In this document: piece after piece, positions 34,802 to 58,398 of the stretch
How positions within the stretch are numbered: position 1 is the stretch's first letter
Layout: every line of letters begins with the position of its first letter
Assembly: GCA_902800355.1 (NCBI GenBank)
Contig: CADCEE010000003.1
Span: 662 to 64,661, forward strand
Direction: 5' to 3'
Origin: an uncultured Erysipelotrichaceae bacterium
GTDB lineage: Bacteria; Bacillota_I; Bacilli_A; RFN20; CAG-826
DNA length: 64,000 nucleotides
Made by a program: the position numbers and the translations under genes
The notes under the pieces: model-generated
Told to the model about the DNA's origin: nothing
The model's database searches: none
What the model saw: only the letters and a program-made list of their open reading frames with translations

Positions 34802-34887
34802 GCCCGAGTGGTGAAATTGGTAGACGCAATGGACTCAAAATCCATCGGTTAACAGCCATGTCGGTTCGAGTCCGACCCCGGGCACCA
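34802..34887 (+). tRNA. tRNA-Leu (anticodon CAA)
   Basis: Acceptor GCCCGAG/CCCGGGC (one A-C mismatch), anticodon loop CTCAAAA, long variable arm, T-loop TTCGAGT, CCA. TATAAT at 34787-34792 lies upstream. Confidence 0.85.
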
Positions 34888-34960
34888 AATATAGCAATAA
34901 TAAAGTAATAAATTACTTTAGATATAGAATATTATATAAGTTAATTGGAGGGGAATAATC

Positions 34961-35791: not shown

Positions 35792-35793
35792 TT

Positions 35794-36306
35794 ATGATTA
35801 TAACTATTTTATGTGTTGATAAAGCCTGGGGTATTGGAAGACGTAACGGTCTATTATTTTCTCTTCCTAAGGATATGAAGTTTTTTAAAGAAACTACTTT
35901 AAATCATGTAGTGGCTTTAGGAGAAAATACTTTATTGTCCTTCCCTAATTCTAAGCCGCTTAAAAATAGACATCACATCGTGATTAGCCAAGACGAATCT
36001 CATAACTATGTAGGAGTGGAAAATGTCCATGACTTCCAAGAGTTTTTAAAAGCGATTGCTAAACATGCAGAAAACGAAGATGTCTATATCATTGGAGGAG
36101 CTTCAATTTATCGACAAACTCTTCCATATGTTAATAAAGTTTTATTAACAAAAGTTGATGCGATTGGAGGAGCGGAGCTTTTCTTCCCTAACTTAGATAA
36201 AGACCCTTATTTCGAATTAAAAGAACAATCTGAAGTTATTGAAGATAATGGATATAATATTCGATTTTGCACGTATATTAATAAGCACCCATTAAAGATT
36301 AAGTAG
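35794..36306 (+). CDS. folA: dihydrofolate reductase
   Basis: WGIGRRNGLLFSLPKDMKFFKETT, IIGGASIY. Coupled to thyA. Confidence 0.9.
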   Translation: MIITILCVDKAWGIGRRNGLLFSLPKDMKFFKETTLNHVVALGENTLLSFPNSKPLKNRHHIVISQDESHNYVGVENVHDFQEFLKAIAKHAENEDVYIIGGASIYRQTLPYVNKVLLTKVDAIGGAELFFPNLDKDPYFELKEQSEVIEDNGYNIRFCTYINKHPLKIK

Positions 36307-36316
36307 GACGATATTT

Positions 36317-36393
36317 GCCGTCTTAGCTCAATCTGGCAGAGCAACTGAATCGTAATCAGTAGGTTGTAGGTTCAATTCCTATAGACGGCACCA
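36317..36393 (+). tRNA. tRNA-Thr (anticodon CGT)
   Basis: Acceptor GCCGTCT/AGACGGC, anticodon loop ATCGTAA, T-loop TTCAATT, CCA. Confidence 0.88.
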
Positions 36394-36580
36394 ATTAGTT
36401 AATTTAGCCCCCTTAAAAGGGGTTTTATTATTTTTATAAATATTTGTTCTTAACAAATTAATATAAAACCCATAAAATAGTAGCAGTTATTTTATGCAGA
36501 GAATAAACAGACATCGTCTTATTTTTCTAAAGGTGTCTCTTGCTTTGTATAGATAGTTCGTTCTTAAGAAAGGAGAGCTT

Positions 36581-40119: not shown

Positions 40120-40141
40120 GTTATAACTTAATAGATTTAAG

Positions 40142-40171
40142 GCCTAGAAACATTAGTTTCTGGGCTTTTTT
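40142..40171 (+). terminator. intrinsic terminator after the ABC operon
   Basis: gcctagaaac/gtttctgggc 10-bp stem, loop atta, T6. Confidence 0.8.
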
Positions 40172-40193
40172 CTTGTTATACGATAAAAAATAT

Positions 40194-40223
40194 TTGCTTT
40201 TATTAATAATAACTATATATAAT
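40194..40223 (+). promoter_or_regulatory. promoter of the tRNA-Val/tRNA-Gly pair
   Basis: TTGCTT (40194-40199), 18-nt spacer, TATAAT (40218-40223). Confidence 0.45.
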
Positions 40224-40255
40224 ATGTATCGCTGCTTATATAGAAGCAGTGGGTT

Positions 40256-40331
40256 GGGTATTTAGCTCAGCTGGGAGAGCATCTGTTTGACGTACAGAAG
40301 GTCGGCGGTTCGATCCCGTCAGTACCCACCA
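40256..40331 (+). tRNA. tRNA-Val (anticodon GAC)
   Basis: Acceptor GGGTATT/AGTACCC, anticodon loop TTGACGT, T-loop TTCGATC, CCA. Confidence 0.88.
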
Positions 40332-40378
40332 AAATTATGAAAATTCCCCCAAGCGATTGAGGGATTTTTAATAGATAC

Positions 40379-40452
40379 GCACCTGTGATTCAATGGTAGA
40401 ATGTTAGCTTCCCAAGCTGAACACGCGGGTCCGATTCCCGTCAGGTGCTCCA
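40379..40452 (+). tRNA. tRNA-Gly (anticodon CCC) with non-canonical T-loop TCCGATT
   Basis: Acceptor GCACCTG/CAGGTGC, anticodon loop TTCCCAA, T-arm GCGGG TCCGATT CCCGT, discriminator T, CCA. Confidence 0.8.
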
Positions 40453-40463
40453 TTATTAAAAAT

Positions 40464-40488
40464 GGCAGTTAACAAAAACTGCCTTTTT
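40464..40488 (+). terminator. intrinsic terminator after tRNA-Gly(CCC)
   Basis: ggcagtt/aactgcc stem, loop aacaaa, T5. Confidence 0.7.
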
Positions 40489-40508
40489 ATTTAAAATAAA
40501 AATAGTCT

Positions 40509-40967
40509 ATGAAAAAGAATAAAGAAACAGTCCTAGCTTATATAGAAAGAGATGACTCATTTTTAATGCTTTTAAGAAACAAAAAGAAGCATGATATTAA
40601 CGCGAATAAATGGATAGGTGTAGGAGGTCATTTAGAAAAAGAAGAAACTCCTATAGATGCTTTATTTAGAGAAATCAAAGAAGAAACAGGATTAGATGTA
40701 ATTTCTTATAGTAAAAAGGGATTAATTCATTTTAATTATGACGATATATCTGAATTAATGCATTTATACGTTGTTAGCGACTTTAAAGGTAATCTAATTG
40801 AGTGCGATGAAGGTACATTGAGTTGGATTAAAAAAAGTGATTTATTCTCCTTAGAATTATGGGAAGGAGATAAGATCTTCCTTAAGAAGTTAATTAATAA
40901 CGAACCATATTTTGAATTAGAATTAAATTATCTTAAAGATAAATTAATATCATATAGATTTATATAG
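40509..40967 (+). CDS. NUDIX hydrolase (MutT-like)
   Basis: Nudix box GVGGHLEKEETPIDALFREIKEETGL. Confidence 0.82.
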   Translation: MKKNKETVLAYIERDDSFLMLLRNKKKHDINANKWIGVGGHLEKEETPIDALFREIKEETGLDVISYSKKGLIHFNYDDISELMHLYVVSDFKGNLIECDEGTLSWIKKSDLFSLELWEGDKIFLKKLINNEPYFELELNYLKDKLISYRFI

Positions 40968-40990
40968 TAAAAAGTTGGACAATCAGAGAA

Positions 40991-41045
40991 ATATGAATGA
41001 TTGTTCATTTTTATTGTTGCAAATATGAATAGATGTTCATATAAT
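40991..41045 (+). promoter_or_regulatory. ArsR/SmtB-type operators plus promoter of the arsR-ATPase operon
   Basis: Dyads ATATGAAtgattgTTCAT (40991-41008) and ATATGAAtagatgTTCATAT (41023-41042). The second dyad fills the 17-nt spacer between TTGCAA (41017-41022) and TATAAT (41040-41045). Confidence 0.65.
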
Positions 41046-41064
41046 ATACTCGAGGTAAGTAATT

Positions 41065-41403
41065 ATGTATATCAACGAACATGTAATAAATAAGATGCAA
41101 GATACCTTAAAGCTAGCAGGAGATGCGACTAGACTTAAGATTCTATTTTGTCTATTAGATGAATTAGATACTTCTAGTAGTGATCCTCATCATTTGATTG
41201 AAAAATGCGTTAATGATATTGCTTTACAAATTGGATGTAGTCAGTCTTTAGTGTCCCATCAATTAAAAGATTTAAAAGATGGTGATTTTGTTAAATCTAG
41301 AAAAGAAGGCACCAAAATTTATTATTCATTAAAAGATGAACATGTTAAGCAAATCATGCAAATTACTTATGAGCATGTTTTAGAAGGAGAACATCATGAT
41401 TAA
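41065..41403 (+). CDS. ArsR/SmtB family metal-responsive repressor
   Basis: wHTH region LAGDATRLKILFCLL ... IGCSQSLVSHQLKDLKDGDFV. Overlaps the ATPase gene by 8 nt. Confidence 0.85.
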   Translation: MYINEHVINKMQDTLKLAGDATRLKILFCLLDELDTSSSDPHHLIEKCVNDIALQIGCSQSLVSHQLKDLKDGDFVKSRKEGTKIYYSLKDEHVKQIMQITYEHVLEGEHHD

Positions 41404-43531
41404 GAAGAGTTATCATATCACTGGTTTTGATTGCGCGCACTGCGCTCTTAAAAGTGAAAAACATTTAAATAAACATCCTGCCATTAATAATGCAGTAATC
41501 GATTTTGCTAAAGACAAATTATTTATTGAATATAAAGATAAAGAATTAACTATTGATGATATTTTAAAATCAATCGCAGAAGTTGAATCTGATCCAATTG
41601 AAATTGAAGATGCTTCTAAACAAAAAAAGAGATACAAAATCTTTAATAAAGATTTCTGGTATACATTAGCTAGAGTTATTATTGGTGTCACTATTATCTT
41701 AGTGTGCTCGATTGCTTTAACTCATGAACAATTCTATCTTCAATTAGGACTATACGCTTTTGGAATTGTTTTATTAACTTATGATGTTACTTGGAAAGTA
41801 ATTCTTCATATTATTCATAAAGAAAATCCAATTGATGAATCTCTTTTAATTACTTTATGTACGTTAGGTGCCTTTATTGTGGCAATTATCGCTCATGAAT
41901 CTCATTTCTTTATGGAAGCTTTAATGGTGGTGACTTTATATCAAGTTGGCAAGATTATTGAAGGGATTGCCACTAATAAATCTAAAGAGGCTGTCGCTAG
42001 AGCGGTCAATTTAAGAATTGAACACGCAGCTAGATTAGTTAATGGTGAAATTCAAGAAGTCTCTCCAGATATGCTCAATGTAAATGATGTGGTTGTAGTG
42101 ACTGCTGGAGAATATATTCCTGTTGATGCTGTGGTTATTTCTGGAGAAGGTCAAGTTGATACTTCTAGTTTAACTGGAGAATTTGTTCCGGTATCAGCAA
42201 AAGAAGATATGGAATTATATTCTGGATATTTATTAAAAGAAGGAACTTTAAATTTAAGAGTTATTAGAACTTATCAGAATTCTGCGGTTAGTAAGATTAT
42301 TGATTTAATTTCTAATAGCGGGGCTAAAAAATCTAAGGCTGATGAATTTGTTTCTAGATTTGCTAAATGGTACACCCCAATTGTCTTTATTGTTTCTTTA
42401 CTTGTTGCAGTTATTGGAGGAGCAATTACCAATAACTGGAAAGACTGGATTATCTTAGGGCTTAAGATGATGGTAGTAGCATGTCCTTGTGCAATTGTTA
42501 TTTCCGTTCCACTTGCTTATTTTGCCGCCTTAGGATTAGCGAGTAAAAACGGTATTGTCTTTAAAGGCACTAACTATATTGATGAGCTTAATCGTATGGA
42601 AAAACTAGTGACTGATAAGACTGGTACTTTAACTAAAGGCGTCTTTGAAATAAGCAAAATTGTTCCTATCGGAGTTAAAGAGGATTTCTTACTTGATGTG
42701 ATGTCTAGTGTTGAATCTTTAAGTAACCATCCTATTGGAAAAACTATAGCAAAATTAAGAAAAAGCTCAGTTTTGAGCGAAAATTTTGAAGAATTAGCAG
42801 GTTTAGGGGTATGCGCTACTTATAACGGCGATATGGTCTTAATTGGTAATTCTAAGCTTTTAAAAGAATATGAAATTAACTTTGAAGAAGTTGATGAAAA
42901 CGGCGTAGTTGTATACTGCGTTTATGATGGTAAATACATTGGATATTTAGTGATATCTGATGAGGTTAGAGAGAGCAGTAAAGAGTTAGTTTCATCACTT
43001 CAAAATAGTGGAGTGGATGTTGTTCTACTTACTGGAGATAAAGAACATAATACACAAAAATTATGTAATGAATTAGGAATTAAAAAATATTATTCTTCTT
43101 TACTCCCAGATCAAAAGATTGAATGTTTAGAAAAAGAACTTTCTAATAAATACGCGACTGGTTTTATTGGGGATGGTATCAATGATGCTGCCTCCATCAA
43201 AAGAGCGGATATTGGCTTTGCAATGGGTGCAATTGGTAGTGACGCTGCGATTGAAAGTGCTGATGTTGTGATCATGAATGATGAACCAATGAAAGTTTAT
43301 GACTCTATTAGAATTGCTAAGATTGCTAGACATACATCAGTATTTAATATTATCTTTGCGTTAAGTGTAAAAATTGGAGTAGAGTTAGCGGCAATTATTA
43401 CTAGCTTATTAGGAAAGGGCGAACTTATTCCAATGTGGTTAGCGGTATTAGCAGACACTGGATTAACTGTATTAATGGTCATTAATTCTTTATTAATCTT
43501 ATATAGAAAAATTAAACGTAAAAGTGTTTAA
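41396..43531 (+). CDS. cadA: heavy-metal translocating P1B-type ATPase (Cd/Zn/Co-type)
   Basis: N-terminal HMA domain with GFDCAHC, TM CPC motif (VVACPCAIV), DKTGTLT, GDGINDA. Confidence 0.9.
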   Translation: MIKKSYHITGFDCAHCALKSEKHLNKHPAINNAVIDFAKDKLFIEYKDKELTIDDILKSIAEVESDPIEIEDASKQKKRYKIFNKDFWYTLARVIIGVTIILVCSIALTHEQFYLQLGLYAFGIVLLTYDVTWKVILHIIHKENPIDESLLITLCTLGAFIVAIIAHESHFFMEALMVVTLYQVGKIIEGIATNKSKEAVARAVNLRIEHAARLVNGEIQEVSPDMLNVNDVVVVTAGEYIPVDAVVISGEGQVDTSSLTGEFVPVSAKEDMELYSGYLLKEGTLNLRVIRTYQNSAVSKIIDLISNSGAKKSKADEFVSRFAKWYTPIVFIVSLLVAVIGGAITNNWKDWIILGLKMMVVACPCAIVISVPLAYFAALGLASKNGIVFKGTNYIDELNRMEKLVTDKTGTLTKGVFEISKIVPIGVKEDFLLDVMSSVESLSNHPIGKTIAKLRKSSVLSENFEELAGLGVCATYNGDMVLIGNSKLLKEYEINFEEVDENGVVVYCVYDGKYIGYLVISDEVRESSKELVSSLQNSGVDVVLLTGDKEHNTQKLCNELGIKKYYSSLLPDQKIECLEKELSNKYATGFIGDGINDAASIKRADIGFAMGAIGSDAAIESADVVIMNDEPMKVYDSIRIAKIARHTSVFNIIFALSVKIGVELAAIITSLLGKGELIPMWLAVLADTGLTVLMVINSLLILYRKIKRKSV

Positions 43532-43542
43532 TATAGTGGAAT

Positions 43543-43619
43543 GCGCCATTAACTCAACTGGATAGAGTGTCAGACTTCGAATCTGGAAGTTGAGGGTTCG
43601 AGTCCTTCATGGCGCGCCA
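43543..43619 (+). tRNA. tRNA-Arg (anticodon TCG)
   Basis: Acceptor GCGCCAT/ATGGCGC, anticodon loop CTTCGAA, T-loop TTCGAGT, CCA. Confidence 0.88.
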
Positions 43620-43632
43620 CAATATTTGATTA

Positions 43633-43658
43633 GGCCACATAAAAGTGTGGTCTTTTTT
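43633..43658 (+). terminator. intrinsic terminator after tRNA-Arg
   Basis: ggccacat/gtgtggtc stem (two G-U), loop aaaa, T6. Confidence 0.65.
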
Positions 43659-43671
43659 AATTTTTTTAAAA

Positions 43672-43733
43672 TTTTTTCGCAAATTTTTGAAAATTACCAC
43701 TCTTATATATATGAGAGGTATTTTTATGAATTC
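43672..43733 (+). repeat. 62-nt promoter/RBS/start-codon cassette, copy B (drives the DUF1016 pseudogene)
   Basis: Matches 14130-14191 at 49 of 62 ungapped positions. Contains AAATTTTTGAAAATT (43681-43695). Confidence 0.7.
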
Positions 43734-44148
43734 AATTATCGACACTAAGTTCTTAAGCGAAATTAAGGAACTGGTTAACTCTGCCAAACAAAGAGTAGTA
43801 ACTTCAATCAACATCGCTATGGTTTATACCTATTATGAGATTGGAAGACGAATAGTGAAACAAGAATAGAAAGGGAATAATCGGGCTAAATATGGCAAAG
43901 ATCTTTTGAATAAATTGTCTTTTGAATTAACAAAAGAGTTTGGGACAGGTTATTCATTGACCAATTTAAAATTAATTAGAAAGTTCCATTTACTTTATAG
44001 CAATAAAAAAAGTCAACCACTGGTTGACCATTCTAAATTCTTGAATTTTAAAAATTATCCACTTACAAACGATAGACATCGATTCCTTCCAAATTTGGGT
44101 CTAAAAAGAAACGATGGAAATTTTCGCGAAAAGATAAAAAGAAAATGA
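43726..44148 (+). pseudogene. remnant of a DUF1016/YhcG-family PD-(D/E)XK nuclease gene (N-terminal part only, in-frame TAG)
   Basis: MNSIIDTKF...VYTYYEIGRRIVKQE-TAG-KGNNRAKYGKDLLNKLSFELTKEFGTGYSLTNLKLIRKF matches the YhcG N-terminal domain and resembles the intact paralog at 55950-56960. ORFs 43645-43869 and 43906-44148 share one frame, split by the TAG at 43867. The nuclease domain is absent. Confidence 0.65.
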
Positions 44149-44165
44149 AAATAATCAGAAAAAAA

Positions 44166-44217
44166 TTTAAATAAAAAAGAACGGCGACCCGAAACCTAAT
44201 TCGTACATAGCCGTTCT
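44166..44217 (-). terminator. candidate terminator for deoD (minus strand)
   Basis: agaacggc/gccgttct 8-bp stem (44178-44217). On the minus strand it is followed by ttttttatttaaattttt. Confidence 0.5.
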
Positions 44218-44284
44218 TCTATTAATAAAGTAGCATAGCTTATTGTTGTTATCAATGTTAATTATAATTTTTGAAATACAAAGT

Positions 44285-45004
44285 TTAGCAATAATGTTCA
44301 GCAGTCGCTATAGCGAGTTCAATCATTCTTGCTAAGCCAAAGGCTCTTTCTTCGGATGTGAGCTTTTCATCATGATTAATGAAGCTGTCTGTGACTGTTA
44401 ATAAGCATAATGCTCTTTTACCAAATCTAGCGGCGTTAGCGTATAAGGCATAAGATTCCATCTCCACACCCATCACGCCTAAGGCAGCCCATCTTTTCCA
44501 GATTTCTGGATCGTAATCATAGAAGACATCAGCAGCGAAGATATTTCCTCCGTGATATGGAATATTAGCTTTTTTTGCTTCTTCATAAGCGGTGACCATT
44601 AAATCAAAGTCTGCAACTGCAGAATATGTTCCATTTAATTTAAATTGACTCATCCAGTTACTATCAGTACAAGCTCCAGAACAAATTAATACATCTTTTA
44701 AACTGATGTTTGGTTGATATGTTCCACATGTACCTACTCTAATAATGATTTCTACTCCATAACTCATAAAGAGTTCACTAGAATAAATACCAATAGAAGG
44801 CATACCCATTCCTGAGGCCATAACTGATAATTTTTTATTATTTTTAGTGTATCCGGTATATCCTAAGATACCTCTAACATTTGTTACTTCTTTATAATCG
44901 TGTAAATAAGTTTCAGCGATCCACTTTGCTCTAATTGGATCTCCAGGCATTAAAACAACCTTAGCGAAATCGCCTTTTTCAGCATTTATATGAGGTGTTC
45001 CCAT
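44285..45004 (-). CDS. deoD: purine nucleoside phosphorylase DeoD-type
   Basis: MGTPHINAEKGDFAKVVLMPGDPIRAKWIAE, GMGMPSIGIYS, VEMES. Confidence 0.93.
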   Translation of the reverse strand: MGTPHINAEKGDFAKVVLMPGDPIRAKWIAETYLHDYKEVTNVRGILGYTGYTKNNKKLSVMASGMGMPSIGIYSSELFMSYGVEIIIRVGTCGTYQPNISLKDVLICSGACTDSNWMSQFKLNGTYSAVADFDLMVTAYEEAKKANIPYHGGNIFAADVFYDYDPEIWKRWAALGVMGVEMESYALYANAARFGKRALCLLTVTDSFINHDEKLTSEERAFGLARMIELAIATAEHYC

Positions 45005-45106
45005 ACTATATCTCCTTTATTTGCACATCTATTGTACAACAATAACTAGTTATCACCAAACTTTTTCTATATTGAAGTTTAAATAGATAATCAGTAAACT
45101 GATTTT

Positions 45107-45514
45107 ATGAAAAAAGTTAGAAATGCCTATGTATTAGAAACTAGTGATTTAAAAATCCTAGAGACAGTGTCTTTACTAAATAAAGATAACTATTATCCTC
45201 TACCAGAAGGAGTTTATAAAATCCTTTCTGGAATAGATGATGAAGAAACTAAAAATTTTAGTGAACTATTAACATATAAGACATTAATATCTTATAACTC
45301 GAAAAAAGTATCACGTTTAATAGTGATGCTTATTAGATATCACTATTTAGAAAGAGTTTATGATCCTAGTAGCGATAAACTCTATTTAAAAGTTGCTCCA
45401 AAAGGAGAAACTGAATTAGTGAAATATCATAAAATACATAAATATAAATTTGCAAAAAAAGAGGTTAACTTTGAGCCGACAATTGTGAAACTCGATTTGA
45501 CTAAAATTAAGTAA
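45107..45514 (+). CDS. hypothetical protein, possibly an RQC-like winged-helix domain
   Basis: 135 aa. The pattern GVYKILSGIDDEE...ISYNSKKVSRLIVMLIRYHYLERV...LKVAPKGE resembles RecQ C-terminal/HTH_40-type domains. Weak, from memory. Confidence 0.3.
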   Translation: MKKVRNAYVLETSDLKILETVSLLNKDNYYPLPEGVYKILSGIDDEETKNFSELLTYKTLISYNSKKVSRLIVMLIRYHYLERVYDPSSDKLYLKVAPKGETELVKYHKIHKYKFAKKEVNFEPTIVKLDLTKIK

Positions 45515-45575
45515 TAAATTGATAGTCTAGTCCAATAATTGTAAAATTATTAAGCTGACTATAGGAGGATAGAAT

Positions 45576-46352
45576 ATGTTATTTGCTTGGGATACGATGC
45601 ACATTGCACAATTTATAATTTCGTTATTTGTCATTATTGGAATGTATGGATTCCTATTTTTGATGTATAGCAAGATTGTTAAACGTCTTGCTGGATATTT
45701 ATTTGTTTCTATCTCCTTTGTTGTTGTTTTATTAACATTTATCTTCAACCTTACCTATGTCTTTGTTGCTTGTGTTGGTTTATCTTCTGTTGGAGTCACT
45801 ATCTCTTTGTTTACCAACTTAGGAGACTTAAGACAATTCTTAGCTAATCCATTTAAAGGTAGTAGAGTGAAATCTGGTAAGATGGAAGTTGAGAAGATTT
45901 ATAATAGAGAGTTATTATATAAAACCATTGAAAAAGCGGTCATTAATTTAAGCAAAACTAGAACTGGTGCGATTATGACTTTTGAAAAGAATACTTCTTT
46001 ACAAGATGTCATTAAAAATGGTGTCGCTGTTAGAGCACCGGTATCTGCGGAATTGTTAGTGACCATCTTCTATCCAGGAACTCGTTTACACGATGGAGCG
46101 GTTGTCATCCACGGTAATGAAATTGTCGCTGCTAGTGTTTTCTATACCCCAACTACTAAGCCATTTGCTGGTAAATATGGTAGCCGTCATAGAGCCGCTT
46201 TAGGTATCTCAGAAATCTCTGATAGTGTGACTGTTGTTGTTTCTGAAGAAACCGGAAGAATTTCTTTTGCGGTCAACGGGCAACTTGATCCAGTCGACCA
46301 AGAATCCTTCTTAAGAGTGTTTGAAAACTACATGGATGGAGTGGCTCAATAA
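45576..46352 (+). CDS. cdaA: diadenylate cyclase CdaA
   Basis: Three N-terminal TM helices, then a DAC domain with TGAIMTFE, RLHDGAVVI, GSRHRAALGISE, VVVSEETG. taggagg RBS. Confidence 0.9.
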   Translation: MLFAWDTMHIAQFIISLFVIIGMYGFLFLMYSKIVKRLAGYLFVSISFVVVLLTFIFNLTYVFVACVGLSSVGVTISLFTNLGDLRQFLANPFKGSRVKSGKMEVEKIYNRELLYKTIEKAVINLSKTRTGAIMTFEKNTSLQDVIKNGVAVRAPVSAELLVTIFYPGTRLHDGAVVIHGNEIVAASVFYTPTTKPFAGKYGSRHRAALGISEISDSVTVVVSEETGRISFAVNGQLDPVDQESFLRVFENYMDGVAQ

Positions 46353-46363
46353 TAGGTTAATAA

Positions 46364-46972
46364 ATGGATTCCAAACAAGTTTACGATTTTATACTCAAAG
46401 TTCAATCTATTAGCAAGATTGGACTTGTTTATTCTAAAGACCCTTATGCGTTAACTAATTACAAAGAGTTAAACGATTTAAGCACAAAATTTTTAGAAGA
46501 TTTTTTAGAAGTCAAATTTGACCGCCCTAATTATTTCCAAAGGGATATCTACCCGACACCAAATGTTTCTGTGAGGACTATCATCTTTAACGAAGACAAA
46601 TCTAAGGTCTTAATGGTTAGAGAAGCCGCTTTACATGCATATTCTCTTCCTGGGGGCTGGGCGGATTTATATGATTCACCTTCTCAAACTGCAAAAAATG
46701 AATGTAAACAAGAAGCAGGAGCGGAAATAGAAATTGTTAGACTTGTTGGTCTAACTAGTAGAACTCCATTTAAAGCTCCAACTTCTATTCCAGAATATGT
46801 TGCAATATTTGAGGCTAAATTAACCAAGTTAAATAAAGAACATGAATATGAGACTGATGATGTCGGATTCTTCGATATTGATAATCTTCCAGAGATATCA
46901 AAAAAGACATCTAAAGGTGAGTTATTAAGGTTTATTAAGGCCGCGAAAAACGGAGAAACAATATTTGATTAA
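46364..46972 (+). CDS. NUDIX hydrolase with Nudix N-terminal domain (ADP-ribose pyrophosphatase-like)
   Basis: N-terminal KVQSISKIGLVYSKDPYALTNYKEL domain. Nudix region LPGGWADLYDSPSQTAKNECKQEAG. Confidence 0.75.
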   Translation: MDSKQVYDFILKVQSISKIGLVYSKDPYALTNYKELNDLSTKFLEDFLEVKFDRPNYFQRDIYPTPNVSVRTIIFNEDKSKVLMVREAALHAYSLPGGWADLYDSPSQTAKNECKQEAGAEIEIVRLVGLTSRTPFKAPTSIPEYVAIFEAKLTKLNKEHEYETDDVGFFDIDNLPEISKKTSKGELLRFIKAAKNGETIFD

Positions 46973-47014
46973 AATGACCTTTAAATAATGGTCATTTTTT
47001 GTTAATATACAGGC

Positions 47015-47626
47015 ATGATTTTATTAACTCCTGGTCAAACTTTATATATATCTTTAGCAACAGTAGGAGTGCTATTAATCTTATTTTTATTCGCTTTTCT
47101 ATATTATAGAAATCGATATGTTAGAAAACACGCTAGAGAATTAACATATTTAAAACTTAGTAGAATATGTGAGCATAATGACTATTTATTATTAAATGAC
47201 TATCGTATTGATTTTGATGACTCTAATACAGGTCTAATTGATCACTTAGTGATTTCAAATAAATACATCATTATCATCAGTGTCTTTTCTATTTCTGGAG
47301 TGTTATCTGGAAAATTCCAAGGCGAAGAATTGGTGAATGTGAATAAAAAAGGAACTAGTATTGTTGCTAATCCAATTAATTACAACATTAACTTAACAAA
47401 AAGATTATCTTTGTTTAACGATTTAAATCATTCCTTCTTAAAAGGCTTAGTGGTCATTAATAATGACTCTGATATTAAAATTGAAGGACATAGTGACCAA
47501 TTCCAAATCGTTAAAAGAAAAGATTTAGCAAAGACTATTAAGAAATTTGATCAAGAGAATATCAAAAATCTCAATGAAGAAAGTATTGTTCGCTTTATTA
47601 ATAAATTAAACGAGGAGAATAAATAA
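47015..47626 (+). CDS. NERD domain-containing membrane-anchored protein
   Basis: N-terminal TM. NERD-like core HNDYLLLNDYRIDFDDSNTGLIDHLVISNKYIIIIS. Confidence 0.65.
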   Translation: MILLTPGQTLYISLATVGVLLILFLFAFLYYRNRYVRKHARELTYLKLSRICEHNDYLLLNDYRIDFDDSNTGLIDHLVISNKYIIIISVFSISGVLSGKFQGEELVNVNKKGTSIVANPINYNINLTKRLSLFNDLNHSFLKGLVVINNDSDIKIEGHSDQFQIVKRKDLAKTIKKFDQENIKNLNEESIVRFINKLNEENK

Positions 47627-47658
47627 AAAACAACCCTTACGAGTTGAATTAATCGTTT

Positions 47659-47732
47659 TGGAGCAGGCGACGGGAATCGGACCCGCATAACTACCTTGGC
47701 AAGGTAGTGTTCTACCACTGAACTACGCCTGC
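47659..47732 (-). tRNA. tRNA-Gly (anticodon GCC) with non-canonical T-loop TCCGATT
   Basis: Minus-strand read: GCAGGCG TA GTTC AGTGGTA GAAC A CTACC TTGCCAA GGTAG TTAT GCGGG TCCGATT CCCGT CGCCTGC T CCA. Confidence 0.82.
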
Positions 47733-47751
47733 AATTCAAAATTGCTAAATT

Positions 47752-47779
47752 ATTATAACAAAACTAGTTGATTATGCAA
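47752..47779 (-). promoter_or_regulatory. promoter of tRNA-Gly(GCC)
   Basis: On the minus strand: TTGCAT (plus coordinates 47774-47779), 16-nt spacer, TATAAT (47752-47757). Confidence 0.5.
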
Positions 47780-47818
47780 TATAATTTGTAAGAATTATTT
47801 AAAAAGGAGAAAGCTAAG

Positions 47819-49480
47819 ATGGTGTCAGATAAAGAATTAGCAGAATTAATATTCCCTGAAGTAAAAGAAAGTATTGATGATTTAGAGGCTAGATACCCAC
47901 TTCGTCAACTACAAGAGGGTGCGGAAGTTACTAGATTCGCTCCAAGCCCAACAGGATTTTTACATACTGGTAGTCTATTTACTTCGATGGTTTGTCATAA
48001 AGTCGCTGGTGACTCTAATGGAATCTTTTATGTTCGACTTGAAGATACTGACACTAAAAGAGAAATTGAAGGTAGTGGACTCCAACTATTAGAACAATTG
48101 AAACTATTTAATATTGTCCCAAATGAAGGTTATTTAGGTGACCATCAAGTAGGAAAATATGGACCATATGTTCAATCCGAAAGAGCGGACATCTATAAAG
48201 TGGTCATTAAACATTTATTAGAAGAAGGTAAAGCTTATCCTTGTTTCTGTTCACAAGAAGAACTTGATGATATTAGAGCCAAGCAAGAAAAAGCAAAAAT
48301 TATTCCAGGATATTATGGACCATTTGCGAAATATCGTTATTTAAATAACGACGAAAGAAAAGAAAGAATTTTAAAAGGTGATCCATACGTTATCCGCTTT
48401 AAATCATCTGGAAATCATATTCATAAGATCAAAGTCACTGATTTAGTGCACGGCAATTTTGAAATCGCGGAAAATGATATGGATATCGTTATCTTTAAAA
48501 GTGATGGTTTACCAACTTATCACTTCGCTCACGTTTGTGATGATCACTTTATGAGAACAACCACAGTTATCCGTGGAGAGGAGTGGATTGCAAGTTTACC
48601 AATTCACTTAGAATTATTTAAGGCCTTAGGCTGGACCGCTCCTAAATATGCCCATTTACCAGTTATTATGAAAATTGGAGAAAACGGCAATAAACGTAAA
48701 TTATCTAAAAGATTAGATAATGAAGCGGCAGTTAGCTATTTCTTAAAAGATGGTTATCCTAGCGAAGCCCTTATTATGTATTTAATGACAATCGCTAATT
48801 CTAATTTTGAAGAATGGATCTTTGAACATAAATTTGAGCATATGGAAGAATTCAAATTCTCCTTTGATAAGATGTCTTTAGAAGGCGCTTTATTTGATAT
48901 GGGTAAACTTAATTTCTTCTCTAGAGAAATTTTATCTAAGAAGTCTAAAGAAGAAATGTTAGAGATGACATTAAAATATTCTAAAGAATATGATGAAAAA
49001 CTTTATAATTTAGTGTCATCTGACCCTGAATACTTTAAAAAGATTATTAACATCGAAAGAGAAAAAGAAAATCCTAGAAAAGACTATGAGAAATTAGGTG
49101 GATTATATGACCTTATTTCCTTCTTCTATAAAGATTTATATGAAGAATATGTTAAGACTAACGGGCTTGTCTATAATGAGAAATTCTCGTTAGAACAAGT
49201 TAAAGAAGTTTTATCCGCTTTAAAAGAGTTAGACATTACTAAAGATGAACAAACTTGGTTCTCTCAAATGAAATCTATTGGCGAATCTCTTGGCTTCTCA
49301 AGTGATAGAAAAGCCTTTAAGGCTAATCCAGAAGCCTATAAAGGCATGATTGGTGATGTCGCTGAAATATTAAGAATCACCTTAACAACTAAAAAGAATT
49401 CCCCTAATTTATATTATGTGATGCAAGTCCTTGGATTAGAGGAATGCCATAGAAGAATTAATCAAGTTCTTTCTAAATAA
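47819..49480 (+). CDS. gltX: glutamate--tRNA ligase (long form)
   Basis: RFAPSPTGFLHTGS (HIGH-type) and KLSKR motifs. aaaggag RBS. Confidence 0.9.
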   Translation: MVSDKELAELIFPEVKESIDDLEARYPLRQLQEGAEVTRFAPSPTGFLHTGSLFTSMVCHKVAGDSNGIFYVRLEDTDTKREIEGSGLQLLEQLKLFNIVPNEGYLGDHQVGKYGPYVQSERADIYKVVIKHLLEEGKAYPCFCSQEELDDIRAKQEKAKIIPGYYGPFAKYRYLNNDERKERILKGDPYVIRFKSSGNHIHKIKVTDLVHGNFEIAENDMDIVIFKSDGLPTYHFAHVCDDHFMRTTTVIRGEEWIASLPIHLELFKALGWTAPKYAHLPVIMKIGENGNKRKLSKRLDNEAAVSYFLKDGYPSEALIMYLMTIANSNFEEWIFEHKFEHMEEFKFSFDKMSLEGALFDMGKLNFFSREILSKKSKEEMLEMTLKYSKEYDEKLYNLVSSDPEYFKKIINIEREKENPRKDYEKLGGLYDLISFFYKDLYEEYVKTNGLVYNEKFSLEQVKEVLSALKELDITKDEQTWFSQMKSIGESLGFSSDRKAFKANPEAYKGMIGDVAEILRITLTTKKNSPNLYYVMQVLGLEECHRRINQVLSK

Positions 49481-49510
49481 ATATAAACGGTGGTATAATT
49501 ACCACCAACT

Positions 49511-49587
49511 GGCCCAATGGAGAAGCGGCTTAACTCATTGCCCTCTCAAGGCAACATTCACGGGTTCGAATCCCGTTTGGGTCACCA
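49511..49587 (+). tRNA. tRNA-Glu (anticodon CTC)
   Basis: Acceptor GGCCCAA/TTGGGTC, anticodon loop CTCTCAA, T-arm ACGGG TTCGAAT CCCGT, CCA. Overall close to the Bacillus tRNA-Glu layout. Confidence 0.88.
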
Positions 49588-55614: not shown

Positions 55615-55720
55615 GTTCCAAAGGTCTCAAGTCATTAAAATATTTACACCATGCCAAATTCACTTATAATACTATGTATTATAAAATAGGATTGATACAA
55701 ACGTGTCAGTCCTTTTGTTT
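55615..55720 (+). repeat. hairpin repeat R3 (bidirectional terminator)
   Basis: 55635-55660 matches R2 53096-53121 at 23/26. 55684-55701 matches R2 53126-53143 at 18/18. The insert ataatactatgtattat resembles the R1 stem. The 11-bp stem aggattgatac/gtgtcagtcct (55688-55713) is followed by ttttgtttt. Confidence 0.7.
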
Positions 55721-55960
55721 TATTTCTTCAGCTTCAATAAAATCAACCCAGCTTCCATAGTCATAATTTCTTTTTGTTTCAGAAGTGTGAATTATTCTAA
55801 CGTAAGGAACTTTTCTTTTTATATCATCGGGCAATATTTCTAATGGATTTATATTATCAATGTTTTCTTCCTCAACGGTTGCCGTCTTGTACACTATTTG
55901 TATTCCATAAACGCTTCCTCTACCCCATTTTAAAATGAATCTTTTCATGTTATTTATCAT
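55706..55960 (-). CDS. hypothetical 84-aa protein, translationally coupled to the DUF1016 gene
   Basis: Overlaps the 3' end of the DUF1016 gene by 11 nt. I recognise no family. Coding status rests on ORF length and the operon context only. Confidence 0.35.
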   Translation of the reverse strand: MINNMKRFILKWGRGSVYGIQIVYKTATVEEENIDNINPLEILPDDIKRKVPYVRIIHTSETKRNYDYGSWVDFIEAEEIKQKD

Positions 55961-56960
55961 CGCTTTCTTCTAATTCATCAATTGTTGGAAGAGATGATTT
56001 GTATTTTTCTGGAATCAAATTTGATAATTGATATTCGGATATGCCAACTGGTAAACCTACCCCATTAATTATGTGTTTAGCTAATGAATTGTCTTTGTTC
56101 TTACAAACCAAAATTCCAACTGTTTTGTTATCTATTTCACCCTTTAGTGTTGCGTCAATAGCGGCGACATAGCCAATTAGTTGTCCCATATGTTCTGGCT
56201 TGAATTGACCAGTTTTAATTTCTATCACTACATAGCAATGTGCTTTAATGTTATAAAACAATAAATCGCAATACATTTCGGTGTCGCCTAGTAGCAAGCG
56301 AACTTCTTTTCCAACATACGCAAATCCATTTCCTAATTCCAAAAGGAATGATTCAATATGCTTTGTCAGTTCATCTTTTAACTCCTTTTCGTCGTAATTT
56401 TCTCTTATTGCTAGAAAATCAAACTCATAAGGATCCTTCATTATTTGATTTGTTATTTCGATATTAACAGATGGTAGCGATACTTTAAAATTATCTACAG
56501 TGTTTTGATTTCTTTCAAAAACATTTGCTAATATGCGACTTTCCAAATCATATCTAGACAAATTGTTTTCAACTGTTGTTTTGATATAGAACAAACTTTT
56601 CTCTATTGTCTTGCATTTATCAATGATGATTCTATGGTGCCCCCAAGGTACTAATAGCAATTGTTCCACAACTTGTGGGAAAATATGTTTATACAGAGTA
56701 TAAAATTTTTCCGCATATCTCAGATTTTGATGATTTAATCCTTTGGCGTTAGGAATAGCCTTTTTAAGTTCAATGCTCAACAAATCATAGAAATGATTTC
56801 CGTAACTTGCTTTGAATGATGTTTTAGAAATCTCTTTACCTAATTCGTAATAGAATTTAATTAGATTACTGTTGACATGGATAGCGGCTTTAATTTGAGC
56901 CTTTTTATAATTTTGGGAAAGGCTTTCAACCCATTTTTGAAATTTTGTGTCGATCAACAT
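55950..56960 (-). CDS. DUF1016/YhcG-family PD-(D/E)XK nuclease
   Basis: YhcG N-terminal domain (ELGKEI...YGNHFYDLLSIELKK...NLRYAEKFY) and C-terminal nuclease core GFAYVGKEVRLLLGDTEMYCDLLFYNIKAHCYVVIEIKTGQFKPEHMGQLIGY. taggagg RBS. Confidence 0.85.
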   Translation of the reverse strand: MLIDTKFQKWVESLSQNYKKAQIKAAIHVNSNLIKFYYELGKEISKTSFKASYGNHFYDLLSIELKKAIPNAKGLNHQNLRYAEKFYTLYKHIFPQVVEQLLLVPWGHHRIIIDKCKTIEKSLFYIKTTVENNLSRYDLESRILANVFERNQNTVDNFKVSLPSVNIEITNQIMKDPYEFDFLAIRENYDEKELKDELTKHIESFLLELGNGFAYVGKEVRLLLGDTEMYCDLLFYNIKAHCYVVIEIKTGQFKPEHMGQLIGYVAAIDATLKGEIDNKTVGILVCKNKDNSLAKHIINGVGLPVGISEYQLSNLIPEKYKSSLPTIDELEESDDK

Positions 56961-57002
56961 TGTTTTATCCTCCTATATCATCGACAAGGTGATTTAGAAG
57001 GA

Positions 57003-57332
57003 AATAAAAACCATCCAACCTAAAACACCTTTTGTAACTAACTGCTGATATCCCTATCAACCATAGTTACTGGTGTTTCATCACTGATTCAGTTGGATGG
57101 CCTCTGATTCAAATATTAACTATTTGTGTGGAGCGTGGATAATAATGTGTGAGCATTCATTGTTTTCTGCTCTCCTAACACATTAAGTTATCTTCTGGGC
57201 GATGCTTTCCACAATGCAAGATCCTAACACATCCAATCTTGCAGTCTCTATTAGGGTGCCCTATCGTGTACCTGCGTATGGTCGACTTTGTTTATAACTA
57301 GTTCATAGCGCCGATAGTCTGCTAATAGATAC
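57003..57332 (-). ncRNA. candidate structured RNA of about 330 nt (independent ncRNA or long regulatory leader of the DUF1016 operon)
   Basis: No ORF of 60 aa or more on either strand. The minus-strand promoter at 57339-57367 points into it. It has six hand-found helices, including three nested ones. It ends in a 90-nt hairpin (57011-57100, GGGA apical loop on the minus strand) followed by TTTTTATTT. Higher G+C than the flanks (27/60 in 57241-57300 by hand count). Confidence 0.4.
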
Positions 57333-57338
57333 TTTTTT

Positions 57339-57367
57339 ATAATAACATTTACTATAATTATTCTCAA
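57339..57367 (-). promoter_or_regulatory. promoter for the structured RNA / DUF1016 unit
   Basis: On the minus strand: TTGAGA (plus coordinates 57362-57367), 17-nt spacer, TATTAT (57339-57344). The first helix starts about 10 nt downstream. Confidence 0.45.
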
Positions 57368-57630
57368 TTAATTTATTAATAAATTATTGTATTAAATAAC
57401 ATTGAACATAGAGTGCTACATGGAATTTGGGTCACAGGTTGTGACCTAATTTCATTTATTAATAAATTATTGTATTTAAATGATATTTGAATATATGTTG
57501 CTCCACGGAATTTTGAGAACAGGTTGTTCCCCAATTTCATTTATTAATAAATTATTGCATTTAAATGATGTTTGAATATATGACGCTCCATAGAATTTGG
57601 TGCACAGTCCGTGCACTAATTTCATTTTCA
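57364..57630. repeat. three tandem 83-85 bp repeats plus a truncated fourth start
   Basis: The conserved block atttattaataaattattg starts at 57371, 57454 and 57539, with a partial copy at 57624. Each unit ends in a hairpin: ggtcaca/tgtgacc (57430-57446), gagaaca/tgttccc (57515-57531), gtgcac/gtgcac (57600-57616). Confidence 0.9.
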
Positions 57631-57692: not shown

Positions 57693-57735
57693 AGAGGGTT
57701 GATAGATAACATCGCCCTAGCCTTTTTTATTTCTT
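57693..57735 (+). repeat. possible fourth, degenerate copy of the R-type hairpin repeat
   Basis: agagggttgata...ccttttttatttcttt shares the AGGxTTGATA 5' arm and the CCTTTTTTATTT tail with R2/R3. Folds as aggg(t)-gat/atc-g-ccct plus a T-run. Confidence 0.35.
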
Positions 57736-57768
57736 TATTTTTACTTCAGTATTAGAATAGTTGAGAAT

Positions 57769-58398
57769 ATGAAATATCTTGTTATTATCTCAACTTTATT
57801 TGTAATTGGCTCATTAATTGGCTGGGTTATTGAATTATTCTTCAGAAGATTTGTTTCGCAGCACAAATGGATGAATCCTGGTTTTTTAATGGGACCATAT
57901 TTACCAATATATGGCTTTGGAGTCATTGTCTTATATGCGGTTAGTAATATTCCTTTAGGAATTACTAATCACGCAGTTGATATTGTTGTTCGTATTCTAA
58001 TTATCGGAGTAGGGATGACAGTTGTGGAATTTTTAGCGGGATTAATATTTATTAAAGGTTTAAAAGTTAAGCTTTGGGATTATAGTGATCGTAAAGGAAA
58101 TATTATGGGTATTATTTGCCCTTCGTTTTCTTTAATTTGGTTAGCGGTTGGATCCCTATATTATTTCCTAATTAATCCGTTTTTAGTAAGTGGAATTTCC
58201 TGGATTAGTGAAAATTTAATTTACACTTATTTTGTAGGAGCAGTTATAGGAGCGATGGTGGTGGATTTTGCTTATTCAATCCACTTAGCCACTAAAGCAA
58301 AATATTATAAAGAACTTGCTGACTTAAGATTTGAAGACTTCAAAAAAGAATTACGAAATAGAATTAAACAACTCCGTAAAACAAAAGAAGATATCTAG
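57769..58398 (+). CDS. polytopic membrane protein (putative ABC-transporter type IV / DUF1113-like family)
   Basis: IGSLIGWVIELFFRR...NPGFLMGPYLPIYGFG pattern typical of that family, from memory. About 6 TM. Confidence 0.55.
   Translation: MKYLVIISTLFVIGSLIGWVIELFFRRFVSQHKWMNPGFLMGPYLPIYGFGVIVLYAVSNIPLGITNHAVDIVVRILIIGVGMTVVEFLAGLIFIKGLKVKLWDYSDRKGNIMGIICPSFSLIWLAVGSLYYFLINPFLVSGISWISENLIYTYFVGAVIGAMVVDFAYSIHLATKAKYYKELADLRFEDFKKELRNRIKQLRKTKEDI

What the first reader, a model, noticed from the sequence alone, without database searches (positions are those of the whole stretch)
57364..57630. Three 83-85 bp tandem repeats whose terminal hairpins vary by compensatory changes
The units start at 57371, 57454 and 57539, with a truncated fourth at 57624. 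Units 2 and 3 are almost identical over about 65 nt (tttcatttattaataaattattgYatttaaatgatRtttgaatatatg..gctcca...aattt), with about 8 differences. The last 20 nt differ at 9 positions, yet all three units fold there: ggtcaca-ggt-tgtgacc, gagaaca-ggt-tgttccc and gtgcac-agtcc-gtgcac. Three stem positions covary (g-c / a.c / t-a; t-a / g-c / g-c; c-g / a-t / c-g). The flanks ttgg...ctaa extend the stems, and a TTTCATTT tail follows on the plus strand. Selection seems to keep the hairpin but not its sequence. One reading is three tandem small-RNA paralogs, each with its own weak promoter (TTGYAT-16-TATATG), a conserved single-stranded GCUCCA segment (complementary to GGAG of ribosome-binding sites) and a terminator. 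That layout resembles multicopy sRNA families in Firmicutes. Alternatively the units are protein-binding or origin-like iterons, or upstream elements of the adjacent structured-RNA promoter.
Basis: partly seen in the sequence, partly recalled or inferred. Interest (0 to 1): 0.7.

Follow-up and report, generated by a model that had tools for sequence, protein, structure and literature searches.

The report
Variable tandem repeat of terminator-like hairpins
Three copies of an 85-base intergenic segment, each ending in a terminator-like hairpin, sit just upstream of the promoter of a structured non-coding RNA in an uncultured rumen bacterium; the repeat is real and varies in copy number between strains, but it is probably redundant terminator or promoter-upstream DNA rather than a family of small-RNA genes.

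Summary
TRF finds 3.0 copies of an 85-bp unit at 57371-57627, and each unit ends in a GC-rich hairpin. I found the same array at the same locus in 14 further contigs, with about 1.8, 2 or 4 units. Across 18 distinct units, three stem positions show changes on both sides and 92% of cells pair. However, one of those positions is unpaired in half the units. The commonest array has a broken first hairpin. Every array keeps at least one strong hairpin.

GCTCCA is not conserved in first units.

The array abuts the fully conserved promoter of a ~325-nt non-coding RNA on the minus strand. The 3' part of that RNA is the Rfam COG3943 motif. A perfect plus-strand TATAAT overlaps this promoter's -10 in the known bidirectional geometry.

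My best reading (confidence 0.4) is a copy-number-variable duplication whose hairpins terminate plus-strand divergent transcription before cmpB. Rivals are promoter-upstream or pseudo-promoter DNA, a neutral repeat, and tandem small RNAs. No transcript data exist. Interest is low to moderate.

The parts
57371..57453 (+). Repeat unit 1 (type A, 83 bp), next to the ncRNA promoter
   Evidence: TRF. Covariance model R1 scores 100 bits. The same unit type is first in all 15 arrays.
57454..57538 (+). Repeat unit 2 (type B, 85 bp)
   Evidence: TRF. R1 scores 99 bits.
57539..57623 (+). Repeat unit 3 (type C, 85 bp), followed by the shared tail ATTT at 57624-57627
   Evidence: TRF. R1 scores 96 bits.
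57371..57384 (.). Perfect 14-bp AT palindrome ATTTATTAATAAAT, also at 57454-57467 and 57539-57552. In unit 1 it lies at about -39 to -52 of the ncRNA promoter, the position of an UP element.
   Evidence: It is perfect in 6 of 7 distinct first units but only 6 of 11 distinct distal units.
57427..57449 (+). Hairpin 1, TTGGGTCACA-ggt-TGTGACCTAA, followed by TTTCATTTAT; terminator-like
   Evidence: Folding energy -16.7 kcal/mol, z -2.65.
57513..57534 (+). Hairpin 2, TTGAGAACA-ggt-TGTTCCCCAA; an A.C mismatch on the plus strand (G.U on the minus strand); weak
   Evidence: -6.3 kcal/mol on plus, -7.7 on minus.
57597..57619 (+). Hairpin 3, TTGGTGCAC-agtcc-GTGCACTAA, followed by TTTCATTTTC; terminator-like
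   Evidence: Folding energy -16.3 kcal/mol, z -3.8.
57339..57367 (-). Promoter of the ncRNA: TTGAGA-17-TG-T-TATTAT, predicted start near 57332
   Evidence: 10 of 12 matches, with TG. The core promoter (the TTGAGA -35 and TATTAT -10 hexamers) is identical in every locus seen; only one spacer base varies, G for A at 57360 in the L231 and L238 type.
57338..57343 (+). Perfect plus-strand TATAAT overlapping the minus-strand -10, with the -7 and -11 positions reciprocally paired; this is the geometry of bidirectional promoters (starts 18 bp apart)
   Evidence: Read directly from the sequence. Conserved in all loci. Geometry as described in PMC10268837.
57005..57332 (-). Conserved structured ncRNA of about 325 nt; the Rfam COG3943 motif occupies 57025-57137
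   Evidence: Rfam match of 92 bits. Conservation ends right after the terminator. Thirteen pairs show covariation across two lineages.
55950..56960 (-). yhcG (DUF1016, PD-(D/E)XK nuclease) gene behind the ncRNA; every other locus has brnT-brnA here
   Evidence: Pfam. Gene tables.
57769..58398 (+). cmpB-like membrane protein gene (PF06541), with its own TAGAAT at 57753-57758 and no Shine-Dalgarno sequence
   Evidence: Pfam. The TAGAAT is conserved in loci with and without the array.

Best explanation
The array is a lineage-specific tandem duplication, variable in copy number, of an 83-85-bp intergenic segment. It lies between the promoter of a ~325-nt COG3943-class ncRNA (minus strand) and the cmpB gene (plus strand).

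The part of each unit that is kept over time is a GC-rich stem-loop followed by a T-rich tail on the plus strand, which is the form of an intrinsic terminator. I propose that plus-strand transcription starts at the symmetrical -10 region of the strong ncRNA promoter: a perfect TATAAT sits on the plus strand, with a predicted start near 57350. That transcription is stopped at the first intact hairpin. The result would be a non-coding divergent transcript of about 100-280 nt, and cmpB would be shielded, since it has its own promoter right at its start codon.

The first unit's AT-rich palindrome doubles as the UP-element region of the ncRNA promoter. Extra units arise and are lost by unequal recombination or slippage. 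They are redundant and drift, so some lose the palindrome or the stem.

Shown: the repeat, its copy-number variation, the hairpins and their compensatory changes, their terminator-like form, and the promoter geometry.

Inferred: that the plus strand is transcribed, that the hairpins terminate it, and that this is what selection acts on.
For: - Repeat and copy number: about 1.8, 2, 3 or 4 units at the same locus in 15 contigs.
- Stem maintenance: 91.9% of cells paired, three pairs with changes on both sides, 0 of 500 shuffles as high, and sliding the partners drops pairing to 19-49%.
- Redundancy: every array keeps at least one strong hairpin (-9 to -16 kcal/mol) while others are broken (L231 unit 1, -4.1; L033 unit 2, -5.5).
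- Strand: the plus strand folds better in 14 of 18 units, and G.U pairs are conserved at columns 55-84 and 61-79.
- Terminator form: hairpins 1 and 3 match the terminator pattern, against 0.5 expected in shuffles. They rank 2nd and 3rd of 19 such sites in 20 kb, and their tails resemble those of terminators behind real genes.
- Source of plus-strand transcription: a plus-strand TATAAT at 57338-57343 overlaps the conserved minus -10 in the known bidirectional geometry.
- Independence of cmpB: it has its own conserved TAGAAT 10 nt before the ATG, also in loci without the array. One locus (L230) has lost everything from the loop of hairpin 2 up to that promoter.
- Not a general partner of either neighbour: the array is absent from cmpB orthologues at 88-90% identity and from a second lineage of the ncRNA.
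Against: - There are no transcript data for either strand.
- The plus-strand promoter has no good -35 (TAGTCT) and no TG extension.
- A.C mismatches, which would be G.U on the minus strand, are about as frequent as plus-strand G.U inside the variable stem (9 against 12 cells). Strand assignment is therefore weak.
- A terminator needs only the hairpin, yet the rest of unit 1 is as conserved as the ncRNA (94%). This may only reflect that the whole block of ncRNA, array and spacer is 92-96% identical between genomes whose cmpB third codon positions are 75-79% identical.
- Two hairpins I saw by eye upstream of the ncRNA in the second lineage were not called terminators by the scan.
Confidence: 0.4

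Rival explanations
1. Promoter-upstream DNA of the ncRNA gene, read on the minus strand. The units would be upstream activating or UP-element DNA, operator sites, or duplicated (pseudo-)promoters that feed or tune the ncRNA promoter.
For: - The array abuts the -35 of the fully conserved ncRNA promoter in all 15 loci.
- The first-unit palindrome sits at about -39 to -52 and is kept perfect in 6 of 7 distinct first units, but decays in distal units.
- The best-conserved -10-like hexamers in the unit are on the minus strand. Columns 42-37 read TATGTT, TATATT or TATAAT, with A2 and T6 in 18 of 18 units. Columns 21-16 read TATAAT or TACAAT in 17 of 18.
- A 13-nt identity, TCTATGTTCAAAT, links the minus strand of type-A units to the -10 and start region of the ncRNA promoter of a second lineage.
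- The unit period of 83-85 bp is about 8 helical turns.
Against: - There is no -35 or TG for the minus-strand hexamers. That position falls in the variable hairpin arm.
- -10-like hexamers are common in DNA of 25% GC.
- Similarity of the real promoter to the units is not significant for the window's units (p = 0.41) and marginal for one unit type (p = 0.02).
- This reading does not explain why a variable-sequence hairpin is maintained.
- The second ncRNA lineage works without any array.
Confidence: 0.2
2. A non-functional tandem duplication of intergenic DNA. The unit happened to contain a hairpin, and the complementary arms are kept or restored by a mutational process (template switching within quasi-palindromes, or gene conversion between units) rather than by selection.
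For: - Copy number varies freely between about 1.8 and 4.
- Units look like recombinants. The type B' unit has a B-like 5' arm with an A-like 3' arm and two mismatches.
- One central stem position is unpaired in 9 of 18 units.
- The palindrome and hairpins decay in several units.
- The apparent conservation can be explained by recent spread of the whole block.
- The array is absent in relatives and in the second ncRNA lineage.
Against: - There are at least four compensated double changes among only three stem types.
- No array has lost all of its hairpins.
- The hairpins have good terminator-like tails.
Confidence: 0.2
3. One reading: two to four tandem small-RNA genes on the plus strand. Each would have its own promoter, a single-stranded GCUCCA anti-Shine-Dalgarno seed and a terminator.
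For: - The unit layout is palindrome, then TTGTAT, then an AT-rich -10 region, then GCTCCA, then a terminator-like hairpin.
- Some type-B units have a better -10 two bases downstream: TTGTAT-18-TATGAT, a 5 of 6 match.
- The plus strand folds better than the minus strand.
Against: - The proposed -10 has A2 and T6 in 0 of 18 units. TTGYAT is present in 7 of 18.
- With the better TATGAT -10, the start would fall after GCTCCA, leaving an RNA that is only the hairpin.
- GCTCCA reads GCTACA in 5 of 7 distinct first units.
- The promoter scan calls no plus-strand promoter in the array.
- Hairpins are broken in several units.
- The RNA would be only about 40 nt.
- There is no Rfam match.
Confidence: 0.12
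4. Protein-binding iterons of a replication origin, partition site or recombination site.
For: Direct repeats that contain a 14-bp perfect palindrome.
Against: - An 85-bp unit is far longer than typical iterons.
- The block has no rep, par or recombinase gene.
- Cumulative GC skew rises monotonically across the window.
- The palindrome decays in distal units.
- There is no match in the plasmid or phage collections.
Confidence: 0.03

Closest known systems
Tandem intrinsic (Rho-independent) terminators and insulators, such as the paired T1-T2 terminators behind rRNA operons (own knowledge)
   Same: GC-rich stem-loops followed by T-rich tails, repeated in one orientation, so that one copy can fail without loss of termination. 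Here every array keeps at least one strong hairpin.
   Different: The hairpins here sit between divergent genes, not behind a gene. The transcript they would stop is only inferred. Each terminator is embedded in an 85-bp repeat that also carries an AT-rich palindrome.
Bidirectional bacterial promoters with divergent starts 18 bp apart (Warman et al. 2021, as described in PMC10268837)
   Same: The minus-strand -10 TATTAT and the plus-strand TATAAT overlap so that the -7T and -11A positions are reciprocally paired.
   Different: Divergent initiation has not been measured here, and the plus-strand -35 is poor.
Multicopy tandem small-RNA families of Firmicutes, such as Listeria LhrC1-5 (own knowledge)
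   Same: Tandem units, a C/U-rich motif and a terminator hairpin per unit.
   Different: LhrC genes are about 110 nt, each with a recognisable promoter and several UCCC motifs. Here the units are 85 bp in total, no unit has a canonical -10 at the proposed place, and the motif is not conserved in the first unit.
Pneumococcal BOX elements, with a variable number of boxB modules (own knowledge)
   Same: A modular intergenic repeat with variable copy number of a hairpin-forming module.
   Different: BOX elements are dispersed at many loci. This unit was found at a single locus in everything searched.
Type III antitoxin RNA repeats (ToxI and relatives; own knowledge)
   Same: Tandem direct repeats followed by a terminator, lying next to a toxin-antitoxin locus.
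   Different: The neighbouring brnT-brnA is a type II system on the other side of the ncRNA, and the window has yhcG instead. The gene downstream of the array is a membrane protein, not a ToxN-type RNase.

Membership tests
Intrinsic (Rho-independent) terminator | GC-containing stem of at least 5 bp with a short loop | tested here: met
   Hairpins 1 and 3 have 9-10 pairs, 4 of them G-C, with loops of 3-5. Hairpin 2 is weak.
Intrinsic (Rho-independent) terminator | T-rich tract immediately 3' of the stem on the transcribed strand | tested here: met
   The tails are TTTCATTTAT and TTTCATTTTC on the plus strand, comparable to tails behind genes in this window. There is no T-run on the minus strand.
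Intrinsic (Rho-independent) terminator | An RNA 3' end at the tail, with a transcript arriving from upstream | not testable with these tools
   No transcriptome data. Only a plus-strand TATAAT in bidirectional geometry supports incoming transcription.
Tandem multicopy sRNA genes (LhrC-like) | A promoter in each unit | tested here: not met
   At the proposed -10, 0 of 18 units have A2 and T6 (CATAGA, TATATG, TATAAC). TTGYAT occurs in 7 of 18. No plus-strand promoter is called in the array.
Tandem multicopy sRNA genes (LhrC-like) | A conserved single-stranded seed in every copy | tested here: inconclusive
   GCTCCA occurs in 8 of 18 distinct units, GCTACA in 5, ACTCCA in 3 and others in 2.
Tandem multicopy sRNA genes (LhrC-like) | A terminator in each unit | tested here: inconclusive
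   Strong in most units but broken in L231 unit 1, L033 unit 2 and L133 unit 3, and weak in type-B units.
Tandem multicopy sRNA genes (LhrC-like) | Detected transcripts of unit size | not testable with these tools
   No expression data.
Any described RNA family (Rfam 15) | A covariance-model match | tested here: not met
   Within the array there are only chance-level hits with E above 5. The adjacent ncRNA matches RF02941.
Iterons of a replication origin or partition site | Short (about 17-22 bp) repeats next to rep or par genes, in an origin context | tested here: not met
   The unit is 85 bp. There is no rep or par gene, GC skew is monotonic, and there are no plasmid or phage matches.
Dispersed intergenic repeat (BOX, REP or MITE-like) | Many copies at unrelated loci | tested here: not met
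   Units are found only at the syntenic site, in the window, in 51 related loci and in the collection scans. The whole source genome could not be searched.
Type III toxin-antitoxin antitoxin repeats | A repeat array directly upstream of a ToxN/AbiQ-type RNase gene | tested here: not met
   The downstream gene is PF06541 (CmpB-like membrane protein).
CRISPR array | Short identical repeats separated by unique spacers | tested here: not met
   The units are contiguous, and the variable 20 nt is a self-complementary stem.

The most novel reading that the evidence does not exclude
The array is transcribed and works together with the neighbouring COG3943-class ncRNA. In that RNA, the conserved GCUCCaCA segment forms a long-range helix with an upstream UGNGGA, supported by covariation. 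The units carry the same GCUCCAC word on the plus strand and its complement UGGAGC on the minus strand. Short array RNAs, or a 5'-extended ncRNA, could therefore compete for or mask one strand of that helix and switch the fold or activity of the ncRNA. Dosage would be set by unit copy number.
Probability: 0.06. Interest if true: 0.65.

Novelty: new member of a known kind. Interest (0 to 1): 0.3.

Why it matters
If the hairpins are terminators for divergent transcription, this would be a natural example of a strong non-coding-RNA promoter being insulated from its neighbour by a redundant terminator array that expands and contracts. That is of modest interest for understanding bidirectional promoters and intergenic repeat turnover.

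The array also marks the boundary of a ~325-nt structured RNA of unknown function, the COG3943 class. Here that RNA travels with toxin-antitoxin or nuclease genes. The RNA, not the repeat, is the more interesting object at this locus.

Tried and rejected
- **Rfam.** A scan of the array at a permissive threshold gave only chance hits.
- **Collection scans.** The genome-collection scan for paired palindromes gave 70 stretches, of which only L033 was a true relative. The viral scan gave nothing real. The plasmid and phage collections gave no match.
- **cmpB orthologues.** Orthologues at 88-90% identity, and one at 95% preceded by a TetR gene, have no array. The array is therefore not a cmpB regulatory element.
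- **Coding potential.** The ATG inside TATATG opens 26-42-codon frames in units 2 and 3. There is no Shine-Dalgarno sequence, and the ATG is absent from type-A and most type-C units. Rejected.
- **Conservation as evidence of selection.** Unit 1 is 94% identical between loci, against 82% at cmpB third positions. However, the whole block including the spacer is similarly conserved. The comparison cannot separate selection from recent spread.
- **Homology of units to the real ncRNA promoter.** Not significant for the window's units.
- **Divergent-orientation terminators in the second lineage.** Hairpins I saw by eye upstream of the ncRNA there were not confirmed by the scan.
- **Apparent 151-nt deletion in the L232 ncRNA.** This is a scaffold gap of Ns.
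- **Known regulator motifs and alternative sigma factors.** I compared the palindrome by eye with CodY, Fur, PerR and CIRCE consensus sites recalled from memory, and the unit with alternative sigma-factor consensus sequences. There was no convincing match. This was not a formal test.

Full report
**Observation**

The window holds a tandem repeat at 57371-57627 with period 85, 3.0 copies, 81% matches and TRF score 330. Unit starts are at 57371, 57454 and 57539. The 'fourth unit' is no more than the shared tail TAATTTCATTT.

Each unit contains, in order:
- a perfect 14-bp palindrome, ATTTATTAATAAAT;
- an AT-rich stretch;
- GCT(C/A)CA;
- the invariant GAATTT;
- a variable GC-rich stem;
- AATTTC.

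Units 1 and 3 fold into strong hairpins on the plus strand (-16.7 and -16.3 kcal/mol; z -2.65 and -3.8). Unit 2 has an A.C mismatch and is weak. Two of the three hairpins fit an intrinsic-terminator pattern, against 0.5 expected in shuffles. In the surrounding 20 kb they rank second and third among 19 such sites, and their tails resemble those behind real genes. The unit occurs nowhere else in the 64-kb window.

**Context**

To the left, on the minus strand, lies yhcG (DUF1016; 55950-56960). It is preceded by a match to Rfam COG3943 RNA (57137 to 57025, 92 bits).

A strong minus-strand promoter, TTGAGA-17-TG-T-TATTAT, lies at 57367 to 57339 and directly abuts unit 1. Alignment of related loci shows conservation from this promoter down to a terminator near 57005. 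Conservation stops exactly there. The RNA is therefore about 325 nt, and the Rfam motif is its 3' part. A second, more distant lineage has the same architecture, and across the two lineages 13 predicted pairs show changes on both sides.

To the right is a cmpB-like membrane protein gene (57769-58398). It has a conserved TAGAAT 10 nt before its ATG and no Shine-Dalgarno sequence. This holds in loci with and without the array.

**Relatives**

Identical intergenic DNA is present in other metagenome assemblies of the same species. Collection scans and look-ups by cmpB and brnT proteins brought the total to 15 contigs with the array at the same place, including the window. They come mostly from rumen or gut samples. 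The one named genome is 'Bacillales/Caryophanales bacterium UBA2450'.

Copy number across these contigs:
- 2 in most loci;
- 3 in the window;
- 4 in L133;
- about 1.8 in L230, where a deletion runs from the loop of the second hairpin to 30 nt before cmpB.

In all the other loci the gene behind the ncRNA is brnT-brnA, not yhcG.

The array is absent from the following:
- cmpB orthologues at 88-90% identity, and one at 95% identity, which have other neighbours;
- the second ncRNA lineage;
- the plasmid and phage collections.

A covariance model of the unit finds no copy outside the syntenic arrays, either in the window or in 51 loci.

**Hairpins**

I aligned 18 distinct full units (A3). With the stem defined as columns 55-59 paired with 80-84, plus 61-68 paired with 72-79:
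- 91.9% of cells form standard pairs;
- three pairs have changes on both sides: 63-77 (G-C or U-A), 64-76 (U-A or G-C) and 65-75 (C-G or A-U);
- no shuffle out of 500 reaches the observed pairing or covariation;
- sliding the partners drops pairing to 19-49%.

The constraint is loose, however. Pair 63-77 is unpaired in 9 of 18 units. The first unit of the commonest array (L231 type, 7 contigs; the same first unit is also in L238) folds at only -4.1 kcal/mol, and the last unit of L033 at -5.5. Every array nevertheless retains at least one hairpin of -9 to -16 kcal/mol.

The plus strand folds better in 14 of 18 units, and two conserved G.U pairs exist only on that strand. Inside the variable stem, however, A.C cells (G.U on the minus strand) are about as common as G.U cells (9 against 12). 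The strand is therefore suggested, not proven.

The events behind the covariation are few, about four, because the units fall into three or four paralogous types. Some units look like recombinants between types.

**The small-RNA model**

- The proposed -10 (TATATG) lacks the essential final T. At that alignment position, 0 of 18 units have A at position 2 and T at position 6; the variants are CATAGA, TATATG, TATAAC and TATTTG.
- TTGYAT is present in 7 of 18 units.
- GCTCCA is GCTACA in 5 of 7 distinct first units.
- Some type-B units have a better -10 two bases downstream (TATGAT). Its start site would fall after GCTCCA, leaving only the hairpin as RNA.
- The promoter scan calls no plus-strand promoter in the array.
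- The best-conserved -10-like hexamers are on the minus strand: TATGTT, TATATT or TATAAT in 18 of 18 units, and TATAAT or TACAAT in 17 of 18. They lack a -35, and such hexamers are common in DNA of 25% GC.

Promoter evidence inside the units is therefore equivocal on both strands and does not support one gene per unit.

**A source of plus-strand transcription**

The minus-strand -10 of the ncRNA promoter (TATTAT, 57344 to 57339) overlaps a perfect plus-strand TATAAT (57338-57343). The -7T and -11A positions of the two are reciprocally paired. This is the geometry described for bacterial bidirectional promoters, whose divergent starts lie 18 bp apart (PMC10268837). The sequence is identical in all loci. 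A plus-strand start near 57350 would give a transcript of about 105 nt ending at hairpin 1, or a longer one where hairpin 1 is broken. This step is inferred.

**Conservation**

Unit 1 is 94% identical between loci, like the ncRNA, against 82% at cmpB third codon positions. The whole block of ncRNA, array and spacer is 92-96% identical between the window and the other genomes, while cmpB third positions are 75-79% identical.

The block also lies between a terminator hairpin (55688-55713) and a diverged copy of that hairpin near 57704-57733. Relatives without the block have that terminator directly in front of cmpB. The block may therefore have spread recently, and its conservation cannot be taken as proof of selection on the units.

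**Verdict**

The repeat is real, specific to one lineage, and varies in copy number. Its hairpins are maintained loosely and redundantly.

The most likely reading (confidence about 0.4) is a duplicated intergenic module whose hairpins act as plus-strand terminators for divergent transcription from the ncRNA promoter. The first unit's palindrome would serve as the AT-rich upstream region of that promoter.

The rivals are:
- promoter-upstream or pseudo-promoter DNA for the ncRNA (0.2);
- a neutral repeat whose palindromic arms are kept by mutational mechanisms (0.2);
- tandem small RNAs (0.12);
- iterons (0.03).

None of these can be settled without transcript mapping. The finding is a new instance of known kinds of element, a tandem intergenic repeat and terminator hairpins. 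Interest is low to moderate.

Noticed in passing
window 57005-57332 (minus strand); also L033, L228, L231, L243, L244, L247, L248: The Rfam COG3943 motif is only the 3' part of a conserved structured RNA of about 325 nt with its own promoter and terminator. Across two lineages, 13 pairs show changes on both sides. These include a hairpin with the conserved loop ACGUGUUAGG, and a long-range helix UGNGGA:UCCN'CA that pairs the supposedly single-stranded GCUCCaCA tail of the Rfam model with sequence about 95 nt upstream.
   Followed up: partly
window 55950-57005, compared with L033, L133, L178, L228, L231 and L243-L248: Conservation stops exactly at the ncRNA terminator. The gene behind it is yhcG (DUF1016 nuclease) in the window, but the brnT-brnA toxin-antitoxin pair in every other locus of both lineages. 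Some brnT copies with the same protein sequence lack the RNA.
   Followed up: partly
window 55688-55713 and about 57704-57733: A terminator hairpin behind the peptidase gene has a diverged direct copy just after the array. Together they bracket the ~2-kb block made of the 84-aa ORF, yhcG, the ncRNA and the array. Relatives lacking the block (L079, L083, L085) have this terminator directly in front of cmpB. This suggests the block is an insertion.
   Followed up: partly
window 57753-57771: cmpB has no Shine-Dalgarno sequence and a conserved TAGAAT 10 nt before its ATG. The same holds in distant loci, suggesting a leaderless or near-leaderless mRNA.
   Followed up: no
minus strand of type-A units (in the window unit at 57401-57413, with one base missing) and L243 1105-1117: A 13-nt identity, TCTATGTTCAAAT, links the minus strand of first-type units in the related arrays to the -10 and start region of the ncRNA promoter in the second lineage. 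The window's own unit 1 has it with one base missing (TCTATGTTCAAT). It is either chance or a hint that the units derive from a promoter copy.
   Followed up: partly
window 30738-49587: Nine tRNA genes are scattered singly through about 19 kb, eight of them on the plus strand, in a 33% GC chromosome segment whose GC skew rises steadily.
   Followed up: no
window 55643-55713: A near-consensus plus-strand promoter-like site (TTTACA-16-TATAAT, 11 of 12 matches) lies only 18 nt before the terminator hairpin at 55688-55713. It could be a chance match or a very short transcript.
   Followed up: no
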